From contig JAETQD010000010.1 of NCBI GenBank assembly GCA_021770825.1, forward strand, positions 62,227 through 126,226: a DNA stretch of 64,000 nt, in the 5' to 3' direction. This document shows positions 58,142-64,000 of this stretch, piece after piece. The notes under the pieces are model-generated. The model was not told the DNA's origin and searched no databases. It saw nothing but the letters and a program-made list of their open reading frames with translations. This stretch comes from Clostridium sp. Lineage in GTDB: Bacteria; Bacillota; Clostridia; Lachnospirales; Lachnospiraceae. Each line of letters starts with the position of its first letter. Positions within the stretch are counted from its first letter, which is position 1. Made by a program: the position numbers and the translations under genes.

Positions 58142-58820
58142 CTACAGCTTCGATATCTGTATAAAATGGAGATATCGCTCCAAATCCTCCTTATAGATAT
58201 ATTTCCGGCTGGCAATTCCTTCCATCCACGCAGAAAACGAATCCATATACTCTCTCATATCCAGCATTTCCGCTTCATCCACGTTGATGATGTCAAACGT
58301 ATCGCTGCTTAAGTTGGCCCGCAGCACTTTGTGATATACCTGATTCGACACCTCCGCGTGCGGCGTTACTGTGATCAAAAAAGCGAGAATCTCATCTTCC
58401 CAACAGATTCTCGTTGCAGCAATCTCCACGGCCTTTCCGAAGGGATCATCATAACTGAACGAACGGGCCTTATCCCCGTTGCCAATATAGAGCAATGGAC
58501 AGTTCCCGCATGTTCCTTTCCATAGCTCATGACAGACCATACCTATTTGTATGTTCGGTGCCACATCTTTTACCCGCTTGTTATAATATAAAATCAAGTT
58601 TTAAAAGTTTGTTATATGTTAAATACAGGATCTTTTTATCTTGAGGTATCAACTCACACAAATACTGAATTGCTGTAGTTTTTCCGCTTCCTATACATGC
58701 CTCCACAAGAATATTCCCACCTTTTAGAGCAAATTCAATGAACTCTCTTTGCTCTTCAGACAAGCTGAATTCACTATTTCTTATCTTCATGTGTTCATAC
58801 CCCCCCTCTTTCGCTATCAA
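58142..58820 (-). pseudogene. Frameshifted and 3'-truncated UvrD/PcrA-like helicase remnant (N-terminal ~225 aa only)
   Basis: The 58820-58581 fragment carries Walker A (NILVEACIGSGKTTAI). A +1 frame at about 58590 continues with IGMVCHELW (motif Ib-like TFHSFC) and FDIINVDEAEML (motif II-like). A stop follows about 40 aa later and motifs III-VI are absent. Confidence 0.5.
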
Positions 58821-59152
58821 TCAACATTTCTAAGCATTCCTTAAATCTCCCATCATGCTCTTACGTAGCACTCTTGCTTCGTTCATAAATGTCTGCCGAA
58901 CATCTTTTAATAAATCAATGTAATTTTTTCGTTTAAAACATCAAGCTCATTACTGCCATACAGCACTTCCTACTTGCCGAAAAAGTATTCTTACACCCAA
59001 AAATATTTCTTCACTTTAGGCTGCCTATCCCCCTAGGTAAATCAATTCCCTCATACCCATTCTACGGAAACTTAAAACACACATCCATATTTGCCCCAAA
59101 TCACCCAACCGCTTTGATTTAGCGGGCTTTCCTCGACAGCAGAGCGACTGTC

Positions 59153-59254
59153 TCAACATGTGTGGTTACCGCAGTTGAAACACATATCCTCTGCCTCGTG
59201 TCCTGAAAAAGAACACATATCGTTATCATTCAACAAGTCGTGATTATCGCTCAT
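59153..59254 (-). CDS. Small Cys-rich ORF (33 aa) immediately downstream of the recombinase, not in the ORF track
   Basis: Perfect AGGAGG 9 nt upstream. Translates to MSDNHDLLNDNDMCSFSGHEAEDMCFNCGNHTC (C-x10-C-x2-C-x4-C). Begins 24 nt after the recombinase stop. Confidence 0.3.
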   Translation of the reverse strand: MSDNHDLLNDNDMCSFSGHEAEDMCFNCGNHTC

Positions 59255-59277
59255 TTTAAAGCTCCTCCTTGTTGTTT

Positions 59278-60969
59278 TTATACTGCCTGCTTATGAAGAT
59301 TTTTGTACCTGTCCTTTGCATGCGGCACACTACAGTCATCCATACCCTTTAATACAAAAGTAAGCTTGTATGGGTCAGTACTGCCATCCTCTGCAATCTC
59401 TCCGACAATCACCTTCTCCACAATGCTTTCAAATACCAGTCTGTCAAATTCATCCGTCACATCGGCATTCTTAAGCTTTGCTCTAATGATTTTCATACGG
59501 CTTGCAATATTCTTTTGGGACATAGCATTCTCGGAAAACAACAGCTTTTCTTCCTCACACTTGTCCAGTTTGTGATTCAATTCACTGTATTTTTCTTCAT
59601 AAGCCTCTTTAGAAATTTTATCATCCAGATACATGTCGGTCAATTTCTTTCTCTTTTTTTCAAGAGTCGAAATTTCCTTCTCCACCCGCTTTAGCTTCTC
59701 AGTGCTGTCATCCTTTGAAATAGCAGCTTCCAATGATGAAAGCACCGATTCCAGCACATCATCAAAATTCTCAGCCAGTAGCCGAAACATCTCCAGAAAT
59801 GCATTCTCTATGATAACCTCATCAATTGCCTTGCTGTGCGGACAGTTTTCAATTCCTTTATTGGCTGCTGTCCTGCATTTCCATACAGGCTTTTTATGCT
59901 GTGTATCCTGATGATGGGAACGCCTTGTAAGATTCGTTCCACAGAAACCACACTGACACATACTGCTGAATGCGTACTTCCTTGCAAACTTGGTTCTTGC
60001 CCCATCGGACACATTCTCATTGGTACGATATCTACTCTCGCGAATCTCCTGTGCCTTGTTCCATATTTCCTCCGAAATAATGGGCTCATGATGGTTCCTT
60101 GTATAATATTTATTGGATTCCCCACGATTATCAAGCCGCCTCTTGGAAATCGGATCAACGGTATAAGTCTTACCCATAAGCAGGGCGCCCTTATACTTCT
60201 CATTCTTTAGAATGCCCCGGATACCGCTATCCGTCCACTTAACCTCGCCCTTCTTATTCACTTTGCCCCGCCTCGTAAGTTCCTTGGCAATGGTATAAGC
60301 ACCATATCCCTGCACATACAAATCAAAAATCATATGGACTGTCTCAGCCTCTTTTTCATTGATGGTAATGCTTTTGTCTTCCGGGTGATAATCATATCCG
60401 AGACAACCATTGAACCCCATCAGCTCCCCTCTGGACATCTTCATCTGAACGCCCAGGGAAACATTCTGTGACAGAGATTCCACCTCATTCTGCGCCAGTG
60501 CTGATAGAAGTGATAACTGCATTTCACTCTCCATGGTGGAAGTGTCAATATTTTCTTTCTCAAATATGACTGTCACTCCCTTTGCCTTCAACATTCTTGT
60601 ATAAGAAAGCACATCCACAAGATTTCTCGAAAATCTGGATACCGACTTGGTAATGACAATATCCACCAGACCGTTCATACAGTCATCAATCATGCGCAAA
60701 AACTCATCTCTCTTGGTGGTCTTAGTTCCCGTTATGCCCTCGTCCGCATAAATGCCTACAAGCGCCCACTCCTTATTTGCAGAAATTTTGTCCTGATAAT
60801 ACTCCTTCTGAGACTTAAAACTCTGCAACTGCTCCTCTGCATTTGTACTGACACGCACATATGCCGCCACTCGTTTTCTTGTGATGGTAAGTGGCTTCCC
60901 CACCAGTCTTCGGTCCCTGATAACAGGACCTTCAACTTTCTTAATTACTTCTACTTGTCTTTCTTCCAT
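59278..60969 (-). CDS. Large serine recombinase (resolvase/invertase catalytic domain, recombinase domain, zinc ribbon, coiled-coil)
   Basis: N-terminal catalytic domain AAYVRVSTNAEEQLQSFKSQKEYY (Ser nucleophile). Recombinase domain. Zn ribbon C…CGFCG…C. Long C-terminal coiled coil. 563 aa. Confidence 0.9.
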   Translation of the reverse strand: MEERQVEVIKKVEGPVIRDRRLVGKPLTITRKRVAAYVRVSTNAEEQLQSFKSQKEYYQDKISANKEWALVGIYADEGITGTKTTKRDEFLRMIDDCMNGLVDIVITKSVSRFSRNLVDVLSYTRMLKAKGVTVIFEKENIDTSTMESEMQLSLLSALAQNEVESLSQNVSLGVQMKMSRGELMGFNGCLGYDYHPEDKSITINEKEAETVHMIFDLYVQGYGAYTIAKELTRRGKVNKKGEVKWTDSGIRGILKNEKYKGALLMGKTYTVDPISKRRLDNRGESNKYYTRNHHEPIISEEIWNKAQEIRESRYRTNENVSDGARTKFARKYAFSSMCQCGFCGTNLTRRSHHQDTQHKKPVWKCRTAANKGIENCPHSKAIDEVIIENAFLEMFRLLAENFDDVLESVLSSLEAAISKDDSTEKLKRVEKEISTLEKKRKKLTDMYLDDKISKEAYEEKYSELNHKLDKCEEEKLLFSENAMSQKNIASRMKIIRAKLKNADVTDEFDRLVFESIVEKVIVGEIAEDGSTDPYKLTFVLKGMDDCSVPHAKDRYKNLHKQAV

Positions 60970-61078
60970 GCAAAAACTCCTTTCAAAAATCTGTCTGTAT
61001 ACGTTAAGTAGGCAGCAACAAAATATCTGCTACTGCCTACACTATAAATCATAATGAAAATGTTAACGAATGTGCGGA

Positions 61079-61222
61079 TTATGCAGTCATAAAACTGATA
61101 ACATCATATTCGCCCATAATATGAATTCTTGTTCTGTTGTACTCATCTTCCGTAATCAGTCCCTTACGAAAAATCCATCCCAACACCGCAAGCTTCTTAC
61201 TCAACTCCAGCTCCTTCGTCAT
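61079..61222 (-). CDS. Small ORF (47 aa) upstream of the recombinase on the same strand. Hypothetical, possibly a recombination directionality factor or XkdX-like.
   Basis: Translates to MTKELELSKKLAVLGWIFRKGLITEDEYNRTRIHIMGEYDVISFMTA. AGAGGGG about 6 nt before ATG. Not in the ORF track. Confidence 0.3.
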   Translation of the reverse strand: MTKELELSKKLAVLGWIFRKGLITEDEYNRTRIHIMGEYDVISFMTA

Positions 61223-61417
61223 AAGCTAACACCCCTCTTTCCTAATAATCTGACTTATCACCTTCTTTCTGCATAAATGCTGTGATAATACACGAATTGC
61301 TGATAAGATAAAGTTCTTTTGGCTTCCATTCGTATCCTATGCCGTCAGCGTTACAGCTGACCTTTAGCTCATTGCCTGCGGGCTACTCCTGCTCGAGTTC
61401 CTTTCCCACCTTTATTC

Positions 61418-61437
61418 AAGAATGCCTCGGCATTCTT
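61418..61437. repeat. Perfect 20-bp palindrome AAGAATGCC-TC-GGCATTCTT (9-bp arms around a non-palindromic TC dinucleotide)
   Basis: Read directly from the sequence. No T-run follows on either strand, so it is not a classic terminator. Confidence 0.6.
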
Positions 61438-61439
61438 GT

Positions 61440-61524
61440 GGCAAAACGCACACCGTGTGTAACACGGTAATTTCCTTGTGCGTTTCTGCCATCCGCCGGA
61501 GGCTTCTTTATGTGAATAAAGAAG
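61440..61524. repeat. Nested inverted repeats. 13-bp arms GGCAAAACGCACA/TGTGCGTTTCTGCC enclose a CCGTG-tgtaa-CACGG hairpin. A perfect 9-bp stem CTTCTTTAT-gtga-ATAAAGAAG (GNRA-like loop) follows.
   Basis: Read directly from the sequence. Together with the palindrome they fill the divergent intergenic region between the recombinase operon and the STAND gene. Confidence 0.5.
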
Positions 61525-61645
61525 TGTCTTCCCTCGCTCCTCCTAACTTCTCAGTTCTCCTCGCAAGGTCTGTTGGCATAAGATACAGCTCATGAATCCG
61601 TTTCCGGATTGTTTATCAAGGTTCAAAATACAAAAAGATTTAGTA

Positions 61646-61672
61646 GAACATTTGTTCTTTTTGTGTTATAAT
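61646..61672 (+). promoter_or_regulatory. Extended -10 promoter (TGtTATAAT) with an overlapping LexA/Cheo box GAACATTTGTTC, upstream of the STAND gene
   Basis: tagtaGAACATTTGTTCtttttgTGtTATAATc. GAAC-N4-GTTC is the Firmicutes LexA operator core. The -10 is consensus with a TG extension, about 110 nt upstream of the ORF. Confidence 0.5.
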
Positions 61673-61781
61673 CTTCTTGTAGCCAAGCCATTTCTCTCAT
61701 GGCTTCTGGTGGCTACGTTTTCATGGGTTAATGATACGAAATTTTGTCTTGGATTATCATTGACGGAAAGTTGACCGGAAG

Positions 61782-63845
61782 TTGACGAAAAAGTTAGGAA
61801 GTGATGAATTGCAGAACCGCATTACCTTCTCCAACGTAATCGGAGTGTTATTGGAAAATAAAAAGAAAACTTATGCACAGTACCAGATGATTGAAGACAT
61901 CTTCTACGACTGCCTGGGCAACATGGATTTATTTGAAAAAGAGGATTTTGAAAAAAATGTTACCTACAGCAGATGGTGTACCGGAGAGCGCCCGATACCC
62001 AAGGAAATATTATCCTTTTATGACAATTGCGGATTTGACGGCATTCAGGATAATATTCAGGATGATGTAATTCCAAACCTTATCAATGTGCCAGCCACAA
62101 GGAAACTGCTTTTAGAATTGGTTATGGACAGTGTGGATGTAATTGGTACAAAAAAGGCGGATGAATTTGCCCAGATAACCGATGATGCAGAGCTTATCAC
62201 TGCCCTTATCCGCTACGCCATATTAAATGACCATGACAGCAGACACACCCTGTTATCACCTAATTTATCGGATATTCTTCTGAGTAACAAGCTTCCTTCT
62301 GTAAACCGCTATTTTCTCGGAAGAAAAGAGGAAATAAAGGTCGTTAGCAAAGCTTTGCAGGAAAACAATCTTGTATTTATCACCGGCACTGCCGGTATGG
62401 GTAAAAGTGAACTGGCAAAGGTCTATGCCAAAAAGAATGAAAAGAAATACACCAACATCATTCACTTATTTTACGATGGTGATTTAAAGAAATGTGTTGC
62501 TCAGATGGAATTTAGTGATGATACCGCGGACATGAGCGAAGATATGCTCCTAGACAGACATATGAAACTATTAAAAAAGCTCCACTCTGACAGTCTCATT
62601 ATCATTGACAACTTCAATGTTCTGCCAAAAGAGGATGCTTTCTTTAAGGAATTTATAAAAATGAACTGTAAGATACTGGTTACCAGCCGGTGCAATATCT
62701 CTCAGTTTAAGACGGTAAAAGTTTCTGAAATGGACGCAGATACAGAGCTTGTAGAACTGTTTTATAAGCATTGCCCTTCTGCAAAGAGTTCTGAAGATGT
62801 GGTAAAGGACATTATCCAGACGGTGGGCTGTCACACCCTTACTGTATGCCTGTCTGCATTATCCCTGACAGCCAGCGGCATGGAACCGGAAGAACTGCTT
62901 GCTGAACTGAGAACTTGTGGGCTGAATATCGCCTCCGGGGAAGATGTGGAACTGTATAAAGATGATGATTTTACTGACGGACTGATGATCGAGCATTTAC
63001 GCAAACTGTTACAACTTGGCAAATTGTCCAATCAGCAATTGGACATTCTTTGCAATCTGTCTCTGCTACCAGTTGCCGGCATATTAAAGAACAGCTTCAA
63101 GAACTGGATGAGACTTGATAACCTTGCGGATGTAAACCACCTTATTAAATACGGATTTATCAACGAAGATACAGATAACAAGAAAATCAGCCTGCATCCA
63201 CTGTTACAGGAAGTGATTTCCATTGAAACCATACCAACCATAACTGCCTGCCGGACTCTGCTTAATAGCCTCCACCTTGTCTGCCTGGCACATGGCTTGG
63301 AACTTCGCAGGCCGGAAAATATCATTGCTTCCCTTATCAGTGTATCAGAGCGCATTATAGTAGATGATGGTGCATATTTCTTACTGTTTTTACAGGATAT
63401 GTTCCCATATCTGGACAAATACCTTGTATCGGATTACCTGCCGAAACTAACTGATAGAATCAGCTATCTTATGGAAGAATACAAGCTGGAATCTCCATGT
63501 GACAGGGCATTGCTACTGGATTATAAGGCAGAGTGTTTTCTGTTGAAAAAGGATTACGCAAATGCAGTTAAGGAACGTGAAAAGGCAATCAACATCATGG
63601 AAAAGATGCATACAAAAGATGCAGATATGCGAACTGCAAACCTGCTATCCAATCTGTACAACAACCTTTCCAACACTTATCTGCTGATGAAGCGTGGAAA
63701 TGAGGCAGCCAATGCACTCCGTACAGCCTTTGATATCCGTATGGAATATACACACTTGGGACTTACCGAATCCCATGATTCCCTGCAACAGATGATGAAC
63801 CTTATCAATATACTGTTGCTGGCAAAGTATACGGTAAATAGCTAG
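61782..63845 (+). CDS. STAND-class NTPase with an N-terminal ~190-aa (possibly HTH-like) domain, an NB-ARC-like P-loop ATPase and C-terminal TPR-like helical repeats
   Basis: Walker A FITGTAGMGKSELAK. Walker B SLIIIDNFN. ILVTSRC (hhhTSR/TTR-like). GCHTLTV at the GxP position. C-terminal ~300 aa are helical repeats. WCTGERPIPKEIL resembles the XRE-HTH W-x-x-G-x-R-x-P pattern. The start is uncertain: TTG at 61782, or more likely TTG at about 61809 with AGGAAG 7 nt upstream. Confidence 0.8.
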   Translation: MTKKLGSDELQNRITFSNVIGVLLENKKKTYAQYQMIEDIFYDCLGNMDLFEKEDFEKNVTYSRWCTGERPIPKEILSFYDNCGFDGIQDNIQDDVIPNLINVPATRKLLLELVMDSVDVIGTKKADEFAQITDDAELITALIRYAILNDHDSRHTLLSPNLSDILLSNKLPSVNRYFLGRKEEIKVVSKALQENNLVFITGTAGMGKSELAKVYAKKNEKKYTNIIHLFYDGDLKKCVAQMEFSDDTADMSEDMLLDRHMKLLKKLHSDSLIIIDNFNVLPKEDAFFKEFIKMNCKILVTSRCNISQFKTVKVSEMDADTELVELFYKHCPSAKSSEDVVKDIIQTVGCHTLTVCLSALSLTASGMEPEELLAELRTCGLNIASGEDVELYKDDDFTDGLMIEHLRKLLQLGKLSNQQLDILCNLSLLPVAGILKNSFKNWMRLDNLADVNHLIKYGFINEDTDNKKISLHPLLQEVISIETIPTITACRTLLNSLHLVCLAHGLELRRPENIIASLISVSERIIVDDGAYFLLFLQDMFPYLDKYLVSDYLPKLTDRISYLMEEYKLESPCDRALLLDYKAECFLLKKDYANAVKEREKAINIMEKMHTKDADMRTANLLSNLYNNLSNTYLLMKRGNEAANALRTAFDIRMEYTHLGLTESHDSLQQMMNLINILLLAKYTVNS

Positions 63846-63920
63846 TACCGTGCCAGTTTCGCTAAAATCTGAGATAATCAACTTTGAAAAAACTAAGTTT
63901 TTATAGAGGAGGACTATCTC

Positions 63921-64000
63921 ATGGATAAATCAACCCATCAGATCCGGCGTGAACAATGGACTCAGATCATCAATAACTGCCTTGCCAGCGGCCAGTCTAA
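63921..64000 (+). CDS. 5' end of an ORF running off the window. Possibly an HTH-containing transposase or regulator N-terminus.
   Basis: AGAGGAGG ribosome-binding site, then ATG. Translates to MDKSTHQIRREQWTQIINNCLASGQS… Only 26 codons are visible. Confidence 0.25.
   Translation, partial: MDKSTHQIRREQWTQIINNCLASGQS

What the first reader, a model, noticed from the sequence alone, without database searches (positions are those of the whole stretch)
59153..61222. Large serine recombinase module with two unannotated flanking mini-ORFs
A 563-aa serine recombinase with a zinc ribbon and coiled coil is preceded by a 47-aa ORF (WIFRKGLITEDEY…) and followed, 24 nt after its stop, by a 33-aa four-Cys ORF. 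Both carry good Shine-Dalgarno sequences. Neither is in the six-frame track (both are under 60 aa). Small partners of serine integrases are the usual candidates for recombination directionality factors. The Cys-rich peptide (C-x10-C-x2-C-x4-C) could be a zinc-ribbon accessory factor.
Basis: partly seen in the sequence, partly recalled or inferred. Interest (0 to 1): 0.6.

Follow-up and report, generated by a model that had tools for sequence, protein, structure and literature searches.

The report
Integrase module at a rumA insertion junction
The window holds the right-hand end of a mobile element inserted in the tail of a ribosomal-RNA methyltransferase gene (rumA): the 33-aa "four-Cys" ORF lies across the recombination site rather than encoding a zinc-ribbon factor, while the 47-aa upstream ORF is a real, widely conserved but uncharacterised partner gene of this integrase family.

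Summary
All three ORFs exist as described.

- **Recombinase.** A 563-aa large serine recombinase (LSR) lies at 59278-60969 (-). Its closest annotated relatives are streptococcal "_rum" elements (46% identity).
- **33-aa ORF (59153-59254, -).** It crosses the element/host junction.
  - Its stop codon TGA contains the GA crossover dinucleotide of rumA codon GAG.
  - The next 11 codons in another frame (ETVALLSRKAR*) are the rumA 3' remnant. This is the insertion point published for vanG/ICE-r elements.
  - Elsewhere the same ORF is 30-130 aa long, with unrelated tails (74 clusters).
  - Only two of the four Cys are conserved, and those codons sit in conserved DNA motifs (TGTGTTC, CATGT).
  - In distant relatives this stretch is the C-terminal tail of the integrase itself, so here it is a split-off tail ORF. 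The zinc-ribbon reading is not supported.
- **47-aa ORF (61079-61222, -).** It is a genuine gene.
  - It is found directly upstream of the LSR in nearly all of 80 genome loci, down to 52% LSR identity, and in Streptococcus, Erysipelothrix and Anaerococcus elements.
  - dN/dS is 0.04-0.14, and there are 813 protein clusters.
  - It is SHOCT-like and predicted as a confident helical hairpin.
  - A role as a directionality or regulatory cofactor is plausible but untested.

The parts
59278..60969 (-). Large serine recombinase (integrase), 563 aa, with its own TAA stop
   Evidence: Pfam Resolvase, Recombinase and Zn_ribbon_recom. The catalytic-type motif AAYVRVST is visible in the sequence. It is 46-47% identical to the recombinases of Streptococcus '_rum' elements, Erysipelothrix phi1605 and Anaerococcus pAPRE01.
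61079..61222 (-). 47-aa SHOCT-like helical-hairpin protein (p47), a conserved partner gene of this LSR clade
   Evidence: 46 close clusters and 813 clusters with the profile. Present directly upstream of the LSR in nearly all genome loci and in annotated elements. dN/dS 0.04-0.14. 20 of 26 family members hit SHOCT and 18 of 26 hit SHOCT_2. AlphaFold2 predicts a two-helix hairpin with pLDDT 89.9.
59153..59254 (-). 33-aa ORF: a split-off homologue of the integrase C-terminal tail, reading across the att junction. 32 codons are element DNA, and the TGA stop overlaps the crossover.
   Evidence: The homology break lies at the same point in 8 R. porci-type loci with 5 different right flanks. 74 clusters share only the N-terminal 27-33 aa. 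The same CS..CS..DTC motif forms the C-terminal tail of the LSR ORF in L096-L101 and in phi-SgaBSJ31_rum.
59153..59154 (-). Inferred GA crossover dinucleotide, the first two bases of rumA codon GAG (59154-59152)
   Evidence: Homology to related elements ends at window 59147-59152. The junction alignments share the core CATGT(G/T)GAGAC. GA in the 11th codon from the rumA 3' end is the published target (PMC4120198). The exact dinucleotide is inferred, not shown.
59119..59154 (-). [quoted passage not shown]
   Evidence: The ORF 59119-59229 (-) reads MITICVLFQDTRQRICVSTAVTTHVETVALLSRKAR. 33 of 50 junctions in related loci end in similar 10-18-codon remnants such as HVETVCLLSRKAR*. An annotated S. 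suis RumA ends ..FPNTHHVECVALLVKA*.
59155..59225 (-). Element-side arm of the attachment site (attR, P-type arm), with conserved motifs GATATGTGTT (x2, 33 nt apart) and AACCACACATGT
   Evidence: Direct repeat D3. TGTGTT(C/T) at about -28 and GAC(A/G)CATGT next to the core are kept across lineages with 52-100% LSR identity. Synonymous-site divergence is lower here (pS 0.27) than in p47. Binding by the LSR is inferred.
60970..61078 (-). p47-LSR intergenic region, with an invariant 16-nt element ACATTCGTTAACATTT (61073..61058) and a hairpin (61008-61040)
   Evidence: The 16-mer is identical in 8 lineages whose coding synonymous sites are saturated. Inverted repeat I1. Its function, promoter or operator for the LSR, is inferred.
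61782..63845 (+). Divergently transcribed STAND-type NTPase/TPR gene, cargo of the same element. Truncated at its 3' end (about 63830) relative to 767-776-aa relatives.
   Evidence: Pfam AAA/nSTAND/TPR weak hits. Synteny STAND(-)-p47-LSR in L001-L010 and L020-L028. Homology to the full-length genes stops at window 63830.

Best explanation
The region 59153-61413 is the integration/excision module at the right-hand end of an integrative element. The element sits in the 3' end of a rumA-type 23S rRNA (uracil-5) methyltransferase gene and extends beyond the high-coordinate end of the window.

Recombinase and crossover:
- The 563-aa large serine recombinase recombines at a GA dinucleotide inside rumA codon GAG (motif H-V-E-T-V), 11 codons before the rumA stop.
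- The DNA just downstream of the recombinase gene is therefore attR. It consists of an element-derived arm (59155 to about 59225), the GA core (59154-59153), and the last 11 rumA codons (to 59119).

The 33-aa ORF:
- It is the detached counterpart of the integrase C-terminal tail. In more distant relatives that tail is part of the integrase ORF and runs through the att core.
- Here the integrase has acquired its own stop, and the tail is re-initiated from a strong Shine-Dalgarno sequence.
- Its end is set by whatever DNA lies across the crossover. In this window GTT-GAG reads as TGT-TGA and gives 33 aa. At GTG-GAG sites the ORF reads on.
- Three of its four Cys codons (Cys14, Cys25, Cys33) are the TGT triplets of conserved att-arm motifs (TGTGTTC twice, and CATGT at the core). 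Cys28 (TGC) lies outside those motifs and is confined to the window's sub-lineage.
- The ORF is probably translated, but there is no evidence that it is a metal-binding factor.

The 47-aa ORF:
- It is a conserved two-helix SHOCT-like protein encoded immediately upstream of the LSR throughout this integrase clade.
- The most likely role (inferred, about 30%) is a cofactor that binds the integrase and modulates its activity or directionality. Otherwise it regulates the module in some other way.

Shown: the junction, the rumA remnant, the variable tails, the homology to integrase tails, and the conservation and selection on p47.
Inferred: the exact crossover, LSR binding to the arm, translation of the small ORF, and any function of p47.
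For: Junction:
- Eight loci with an identical p47 share TrkA/TrkH, STAND, p47 and LSR on one side, but diverge abruptly at ...GACGACGCATG|T(G/T)GAG into five different flanks.
- Window homology to relatives with 97% LSR identity ends at 59147.
- 74 representative clusters share only residues 1 to about 32 of the small ORF.

rumA target:
- The +1 frame reads TTH|VETVALLSRKAR*.
- 5522 protein clusters are fusions at H|VETV. Diverse RumA C-terminal parts (Pfam PF05958), or other element ends, are joined to a nearly identical tail of about 100 aa. This is the left end of such elements.
- L102 shows RumA, then the tail, TnpV and further on MobA_MobL.
- 33 of 50 junctions are short rumA remnants, and at least 10 are tandem elements.
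- The literature describes the same GA target in the 11th codon from the rumA 3' end, a terminal serine recombinase, and Roseburia relatives (PMC4120198). It also places attR inside the integrase gene, with reciprocal exchange of the 3' ends (PMC4701971).
- The best annotated relatives are '_rum' elements.

Split tail:
- LSR ORFs in L096-L101 and MN270259 end ..LCSHTTDEAKEMCSYHSDDTCGDNL*, with the same motif and spacing as the small ORF.
- The frame is kept open in 15 lineages.

p47.
Against: - No empty attB and no circular attP junction was found for this particular insertion.
- The rumA 5' body and the element's left end lie outside the window, so integration into an intact rumA is inferred from relatives.
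- The small ORF keeps a strong Shine-Dalgarno sequence. Across lineages it shows synonymous changes at conserved residues (LLND, CSF) and in-frame indels. An independent peptide function cannot be excluded.
- p47 lies on the same strand directly upstream of the LSR. If the two are co-expressed constitutively, that is not what is expected of a classical RDF.
- p47 has no similarity to any solved structure or known RDF.
Confidence: 0.85

Rival explanations
1. The 33-aa ORF encodes an independent small protein, such as an RDF or a zinc-binding accessory factor, that acts in trans on the recombinase.
For: - It has a strong Shine-Dalgarno sequence and an ATG 23 nt after the LSR stop.
- The frame is maintained open in many lineages.
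- The conserved N-terminal motif xDLLNDxxxCSF shows some synonymous substitutions and codon-sized indels between lineages.
- Gene finders call it.
Against: - The C-terminus and length vary with the insertion site, from 30 to 130 aa.
- Only Cys14 and Cys25 are broadly kept (Tyr in some lineages). Cys28 is lineage-specific. Cys33 is part of the crossover core.
- pN/pS is 0.5, with no third-position excess within the lineage.
- The Cys codons coincide with DNA motifs that are conserved whether the stretch is a separate ORF or part of the integrase ORF.
- There are no Pfam hits.
Confidence: 0.1
2. The 47-aa protein is the cognate recombination directionality factor of rumA-targeting serine integrases. 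It binds the coiled-coil/zinc-ribbon region and permits attL x attR excision.
For: - It is co-inherited with the LSR over 31-100% (p47) and 52-100% (LSR) identity, across Lachnospiraceae, Streptococcus, Erysipelothrix and Anaerococcus.
- It is under strong purifying selection.
- Its size and all-helical fold are in the range of known small RDFs such as SprB (PMC5499854 for the role of SprB; the size comparison is from my own knowledge).
- An invariant element between p47 and the LSR suggests the two genes could be expressed separately.
Against: - It lies on the same strand immediately upstream of the integrase, so co-transcription is likely.
- It has no sequence or structural match to known RDFs.
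- The function of SHOCT domains is unknown (PMC3581485).
- p47 persists in loci where the LSR has decayed.
- Some LSR transposons, such as those with TnpX, need no RDF (my own knowledge).
Confidence: 0.3
3. The constant side (STAND, p47, LSR) is a chromosomal platform that captures different cassettes at an adjacent attachment site, in an integron-like manner, rather than being the end of a mobile element.
For: In eight R. porci-type contigs the left side, including the TrkA and TrkH genes, is constant while the right side varies at one precise point.
Against: - The same module lies in unrelated left contexts: TrkH, AbiD with an LmuA-like gene, an acyltransferase, or an IS.
- The variable right flanks are either rumA 3' remnants or the left ends of other elements that elsewhere are fused to RumA bodies.
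- L066 shows a compact element of about 8.6 kb bounded by a tail gene and the junction.
- The published elements have the same ends.
Confidence: 0.04

Closest known systems
vanG and ICE-r elements inserted in rumA (Srinivasan et al. 2014, PMC4120198), including vanG-like elements of Roseburia intestinalis
   Same: - A single large serine recombinase lies at the right end and reads towards the junction.
- Insertion is after GA in the 11th codon from the rumA 3' end.
- 11 rumA codons follow the junction.
- The left end carries an ORF of about 100-115 codons that becomes fused to the rumA 5' part. This is seen here in relatives.
   Different: - In those elements the recombinase gene has no stop of its own and runs into the rumA remnant. 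Here the LSR stops 117 nt before the core, and a separate ORF preceded by a Shine-Dalgarno sequence covers the junction.
- The cargo seen here is a STAND NTPase, plus AbiD or an LmuA-like gene in close relatives, rather than vanG or conjugation genes. The rest of the element is outside the window.
Streptococcal ICEs with a single serine integrase targeting rumA (Ambroset et al. 2016, PMC4701971), and the '_rum' elements of S. suis and S. gallolyticus (MN270259 and others)
   Same: - The integrase clade is the same (46% identity).
- attR overlaps the coding sequence of the integrase tail.
- Integration changes the C-terminus and the frame.
- A p47 homologue is present upstream of the integrase, unannotated in MN270259.
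   Different: The tail is fused to the integrase in those elements (584 aa, ..KLCPQNSDEDKKMYSQGPDNTR*) and split off here. The host range is Lachnospiraceae gut bacteria.
Small RDFs of large serine integrases (for example SprB of SPbeta, PMC5499854)
   Same: They are small accessory proteins encoded within the same element as a large serine integrase. p47 is comparably small and is strictly linked to its integrase.
   Different: - p47 has no detectable homology to them.
- p47 is SHOCT-like and sits directly upstream of the integrase on the same strand.
- No functional data exist for it.
SHOCT / SHOCT_2 domains (PF09851, PF20612; Eberhardt et al. 2013, PMC3581485)
   Same: Two amphipathic helices, with the conserved G-(L/M)-I-(S/T)-E-x-E-Y core. 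Many p47 family members match the models.
   Different: SHOCT is typically a C-terminal appendage of larger proteins. Here it is a stand-alone protein of 40-60 aa tied to an integrase. The window's copy scores below the curated thresholds.

Membership tests
rumA-targeting single serine-integrase elements (vanG / ICE-r / ICE_rumA type) | Large serine recombinase (Resolvase + Recombinase + zinc ribbon) at the element end, reading towards the junction | tested here: met
   (Pfam). (orientation, and the junction 117 nt downstream of the stop). 46% identity to '_rum' element recombinases.
rumA-targeting single serine-integrase elements (vanG / ICE-r / ICE_rumA type) | Insertion after the GA dinucleotide in codon GAG, the 11th codon from the rumA 3' end, with the rumA remnant following the junction | tested here: met
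   Window minus strand reads ...CACACATGTT|GA|GACA.., and ETVALLSRKAR* is 11 codons plus the stop. The target is as described in PMC4120198. The exact cleavage position is inferred.
rumA-targeting single serine-integrase elements (vanG / ICE-r / ICE_rumA type) | attL: the rumA 5' part fused to a left-end ORF of about 100-115 codons | not testable with these tools
   The left end lies beyond window position 64000. It is shown only for relatives.
rumA-targeting single serine-integrase elements (vanG / ICE-r / ICE_rumA type) | att site inside the integrase gene, so that the integrase ORF lacks its own stop and runs across the junction | tested here: not met
   The LSR has a TAA at 59278-59280, and a separate 33-aa ORF covers the junction. 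The fused state is seen in L096-L101 and MN270259. This window is therefore a structural variant.
rumA-targeting single serine-integrase elements (vanG / ICE-r / ICE_rumA type) | Excision to a circular form and re-integration | not testable with these tools
   No empty site or circular junction was found for this insertion.
SHOCT / SHOCT_2 domain (p47) | Match to PF09851 or PF20612 above the curated threshold | tested here: inconclusive
   Window copy: 16.5 bits against a cutoff of 27, and 14.9 against 24. 20 of 26 and 18 of 26 family members match at E < 0.1, with a best E of 3.7e-7. Several homologues carry precomputed PF20612, and one is named 'SHOCT domain-containing protein'.
SHOCT / SHOCT_2 domain (p47) | Two amphipathic alpha-helices joined by a short loop | tested here: met
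   AlphaFold2 predicts H3-19 and H25-38 with mean pLDDT 89.9. This matches the description in PMC3581485.
Recombination directionality factor (p47 or the 33-aa ORF) | Binds the cognate integrase and switches attL x attR recombination on | not testable with these tools
   No complex prediction or assay is available. Only genetic linkage was shown.
Four-Cys zinc ribbon (33-aa ORF) | Four metal-ligand Cys conserved among homologues | tested here: not met
   Cys28 is S, K or N in sister lineages. Cys33 is Y, L, R, G or A at other junctions. Cys14 and Cys25 are Y in some lineages. There is no Pfam hit.

The most novel reading that the evidence does not exclude
The stand-alone SHOCT-like protein of 40-60 aa encoded immediately upstream of the integrase is an overlooked, clade-wide cofactor of rumA-targeting and related Firmicutes large serine integrases. 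It would act as an RDF or as an activity or expression switch. It forms 813 clusters, is unannotated in some published elements, and has weak SHOCT-like counterparts even upstream of triplet LSR systems. A further possibility is that the split-off tail peptide, whose C-terminus differs between the integrated and excised states, reports the integration state to the integrase in trans.
Probability: 0.25. Interest if true: 0.55.

Novelty: new member of a known kind. Interest (0 to 1): 0.3.

Why it matters
- **It removes a false lead.** The Cys-rich mini-ORF is a by-product of an attachment site lying under a translated integrase-tail frame. It is not a new zinc-ribbon factor.
- **It places the window.** The window falls in a known and very widespread class of gut-Firmicutes integrative elements that use rumA as a landing pad and often pile up in tandem. 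Here the cargo looks like defence genes: a STAND NTPase, and AbiD or an LmuA-like gene in close relatives.
- **The useful residue is p47.** It is a strongly conserved small protein tied to a whole clade of large serine integrases. Cognate RDFs are the missing part for using such integrases as reversible genome-engineering tools. This makes p47 a cheap, well-defined candidate to test.

Tried and rejected
1. **Empty site or extension of the window.**
   - An exact look-up of the STAND protein found nothing.
   - Look-ups of the LSR and of the 151-aa flank ORF returned only occupied sites from one study.
2. **rumA body in fetched loci.** The regex D.FP.T.H found none within 10 kb of any LSR or in the window. 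The attL evidence therefore comes from protein clusters and from L102.
3. **Integron-like capture platform.** I considered this after and rejected it.
4. **Search with the 33-aa peptide.** I used the representative library instead.
5. **Searches that found nothing useful.**
   - Rfam scan of 58800-61800: one sub-threshold chance hit.
   - PDB sequence search with the p47 profile: nothing below E = 0.48.
   - Foldseek of the p47 model against the PDB: only generic helical hairpins, E > 1.
   - NCBIfam: no meaningful hit for p47.
   - Literature search for SHOCT together with serine recombinase: zero papers.
   - The virtual-pulldown RDF paper had nothing on adjacent small ORFs.
6. **Promoter and terminator scan.** It did not flag a promoter for p47 or for the LSR.
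7. **RNA structure between p47 and the LSR.** A consensus fold of the intergenic region gave a weak hairpin with no real covariation.
8. **Dyad symmetry around the core.** I inspected it by eye and by the repeat finder. No convincing symmetric half-sites were found.
Full report
**1. Observation**

- A 563-aa ORF lies at 59278-60969. It has Pfam Resolvase (8e-30), Recombinase (3e-25) and Zn_ribbon_recom (4e-12) domains, plus a coiled-coil-like stretch.
- A 47-aa ORF ('p47') lies at 61079-61222. It has a Shine-Dalgarno sequence and sits 109 nt upstream of the recombinase.
- A 33-aa ORF lies at 59153-59254. It starts 23 nt after the recombinase stop, behind AAGGAGGAG.
- The Cys spacing is as described.

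**2. The downstream ORF sits on a recombination junction**

- I looked up contigs that encode a p47 identical to that of Roseburia porci. This gave eight loci with the same left side: TrkA, TrkH, a 776-aa TPR protein, p47 and a 563-aa recombinase. They had five unrelated right sides.
- The DNA is identical up to ...GACGACGCATG and then diverges inside the small ORF. The ORF becomes 33, 42, 47, 48 or 104 aa.
- The window's homology to relatives with 97% recombinase identity also ends at 59147-59152.
- A search of 1.84 billion representative proteins with the 33-aa peptide returned 74 clusters. They share only residues 1 to about 32 and then have unrelated tails of 30-130 aa in total length.
- The four-Cys pattern is not conserved.
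  - A sister family reads MSDNHDLLNDKDVCSFEEHEAENVCSNKDAVA, with two Cys.
  - Another has Tyr at positions 14 or 25.
  - Position 33 is C, Y, L, R, G or A depending on the flank.

**3. The junction is in the 3' end of rumA**

- In the +1 frame the junction reads TTH|VETVALLSRKAR* in the window (ORF 59119-59229). In most related loci it reads H-V-E-T-V-x-L-L-S....
- Many right flanks continue as an ORF of about 100 aa (VETVVLLSQQKPDD...KYFAMI).
- Searching with that ORF gave 5522 clusters. Their sequences are fusions at H|VETV. They join very diverse RumA C-terminal parts, which carry precomputed Pfam PF05958 (for example ..VSCDPATLARDL..VDQFPETVH), or other element ends, to the nearly identical tail.
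- The tail is therefore the left end of mobile elements that insert at this point.
- One such locus shows a split RumA gene, the tail, TnpV and further on a MobA_MobL relaxase.
- An annotated S. suis RumA ends ..FPNTHHVECVALLVKA*.
- Of 50 junctions recognisable in 80 genome loci, 33 are followed by a short rumA-like remnant of 10-18 codons. At least 10 are followed by the tail ORF of another element, meaning a tandem insertion.

**4. This architecture is published**

- Srinivasan et al. (PMC4120198) described vanG and ICE-r elements, including relatives in Roseburia intestinalis.
  - The rumA 5' part is fused to about 115 left-end codons.
  - The 11-codon rumA remnant follows a terminal serine recombinase gene that lacks its own stop.
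- Ambroset et al. (PMC4701971) showed that attR lies within the integrase gene in streptococcal ICEs with a single serine integrase targeting rumA. Integration exchanges the 3' ends of rumA and int and changes the frames.
- The window fits.
  - On the minus strand the sequence is ACA TGT TGA GAC.
  - GAG is 59154-59152, and E-T-V-A-L-L-S-R-K-A-R is exactly 11 codons before the TAA at 59121-59119.
  - The TGA stop of the small ORF (59155-59153) contains the GA.
- With the commoner GTG-GAG target, the same frame reads TGT-GGA-GAC (C-G-D) and continues. This explains the variable lengths.
- The recombinase's best annotated relatives are Streptococcus phages or elements named '_rum', Erysipelothrix phi1605 and Anaerococcus pAPRE01, at 46-47% identity.

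**5. What the 33-aa ORF is**

- In distant relatives (L096-L101, 52-53% identity; Bariatricus, Anaerotruncus, Pisciglobus) and in phi-SgaBSJ31_rum, the recombinase ORF itself runs to the junction. Its tail reads ..LCSHTTDEAKEMCSYHSDDTCGDNL*.
- The split small ORFs have the same motif and spacing ([LMV]-C-S-x9-[CY]-x6-[TA]-C). The window has DMCSFSGHEAEDMCFNCGNHTC.
- The 33-aa ORF is therefore a split-off homologue of the integrase C-terminal tail.
- Three of its Cys codons coincide with DNA motifs kept in every lineage. These are TGTGTT(C/T), present twice 33 nt apart, and GAC(A/G)CATGT next to the core.
- Within the window's lineage there is no codon-position bias. Variable sites fall 9/9/11, and pN/pS is 0.5 in frame 0 against 0.56 in another frame. 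Synonymous divergence (pS 0.27) is much lower than in p47, which points to constraint on the DNA itself.
- Even so, the frame is kept open from the recombinase stop to the junction.
  - Nine of 15 lineages have zero stops, each with a shuffle probability of 0.006-0.045.
  - The other frames have 2-10 stops.
  - Start codons abut or closely follow the recombinase stop.
  - Between lineages there are synonymous changes at conserved L-L-N-D and C-S-F, and codon-sized indels.
- I conclude that it is probably translated, as the tail is in the fused forms. It is not a zinc ribbon, and its C-terminus is context-dependent.

**6. p47**

- Homologues lie directly upstream of the recombinase, on the same strand and 40-310 nt away, in essentially every locus that has upstream sequence. 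p47 identity falls from 100% to about 31% as recombinase identity falls from 100% to 52%.
- A profile built from 26 members finds an ORF immediately upstream of the recombinase in several annotated elements:
  - pAPRE01 (1.4e-12, annotated as hypothetical);
  - phi1605 (5e-11, annotated as hypothetical);
  - phi-SgaBSJ31_rum (2e-9, unannotated);
  - weak SHOCT-like matches upstream of triplet-LSR systems.
- Pairwise dN/dS is 0.04-0.14.
- A profile search finds 813 clusters. Almost all are unnamed. Several have PF20612, and one is named 'SHOCT domain-containing protein'.
- 20 of 26 members match SHOCT and 18 of 26 match SHOCT_2. The window's own copy is below threshold.
- AlphaFold2 predicts a confident helical hairpin (H3-19, H25-38, pLDDT 89.9), which matches the SHOCT description (PMC3581485).
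- No solved structure or fold match is informative.
- The function remains unknown. A role as an integrase cofactor or RDF is plausible from the linkage but untested.
- The gene's position directly upstream of the integrase, and its persistence next to decayed recombinases, argue for caution.

**7. Context**

- The conserved module runs from about 61413 to the junction.
- An invariant 16-mer (ACATTCGTTAACATTT) follows the p47 stop in eight lineages.
- The divergent STAND/TPR gene belongs to the same element.
- In close relatives the shared block is AbiD(-), STAND(-), p47, LSR and the small ORF.
- L066 shows a compact element of about 8.6 kb bounded by the tail ORF and the junction.
- In the window the STAND gene is truncated at about 63830. 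An ORF starting at 63921 runs off the window, and the metagenome contigs L009 and L010 stop at about 63855. This suggests an IS insertion.
- The DNA on the other side of the junction looks chromosomal: a hybrid histidine kinase, SPFH, patatin, an isocitrate/isopropylmalate dehydrogenase-family gene (Pfam Iso_dh) and GGDEF.

**8. Verdict**

- The module is a member of the known rumA-targeting serine-integrase elements, with a split integrase tail.
- The only open lead is p47, a conserved and largely unrecognised partner of this integrase clade.

Noticed in passing
window 63830-64000: The STAND/TPR gene (61782-63845, +) loses homology to its full-length 767-776-aa relatives at about 63830. An ORF starting at 63921 (+), MDKSTHQIRREQWTQIINNCLASGQS..., runs off the window, and the metagenome contigs L009 and L010 stop at about 63855. 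This is probably an insertion sequence that truncates the gene.
   Followed up: partly
window 61058-61073 (minus strand) and 61008-61040: A 16-nt element, ACATTCGTTAACATTT, directly after the p47 stop is identical in eight recombinase lineages whose synonymous sites are saturated. A 13-nt-arm hairpin follows it. It may be a promoter or operator for the recombinase. No covariation supports an RNA structure.
   Followed up: partly
window 61417-61438: A perfect 10-nt palindrome, CAAGAATGCC / GGCATTCTTG, with a 2-nt spacer lies exactly at the upstream edge (about 61413) of the DNA block conserved with related elements. It looks like an operator.
   Followed up: no
L001 8081-8413; L028 11811-12116; L102 10001-10498 (not in the window): The left ends of these elements carry an ORF of about 100 aa (VETVVLLSQQKPDD...KATYxEIKxYV...YIAQVKRKCGI...KYFAMI). 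It forms 5522 clusters and has no Pfam match. On integration it becomes a C-terminal extension of the host RumA. Its function is unknown.
   Followed up: partly
L011-L019: A p47 variant that is 81% identical to the window's copy, and identical in sequence across all these loci (listed in 63 index blocks), is kept next to a PemK-type toxin and HTH genes. The recombinase downstream has decayed to an 87-aa fragment, or is replaced by an IS or a HAD hydrolase gene.
   Followed up: no
L066 249-8806; L020, L022, L024-L026, L028: Close relatives (92-98% recombinase identity) share a block AbiD(-), STAND(-), p47, LSR, with variable cargo to the left (an acyltransferase, a 1341-aa LmuA-like protein, IS66 TnpB). 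In L066 the whole element is only about 8.6 kb and has no conjugation or mobilisation genes. It looks like a small defence-carrying integrative island, often in tandem with other rumA elements.
   Followed up: partly
window 58142-58820 (minus strand): Just downstream of the rumA remnant lies a 79-aa ORF that matches only the N-terminal Walker-A part of UvrD/DEAD-type helicases. It is followed by an overlapping 151-aa ORF with no family match. This may be a degraded or frameshifted gene.
   Followed up: no
L113 (Streptococcus phage Javan105) about 1043-1384; L112 (Clostridium phage CWou-2020b) about 1248-1500: Weak SHOCT-like matches to the p47 profile (E 5e-4 and 3e-3) lie immediately upstream of the first gene of serine-recombinase triplets (about 36% identity to the window's LSR). 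The small-ORF-plus-LSR arrangement may therefore be wider than the rumA clade.
   Followed up: no
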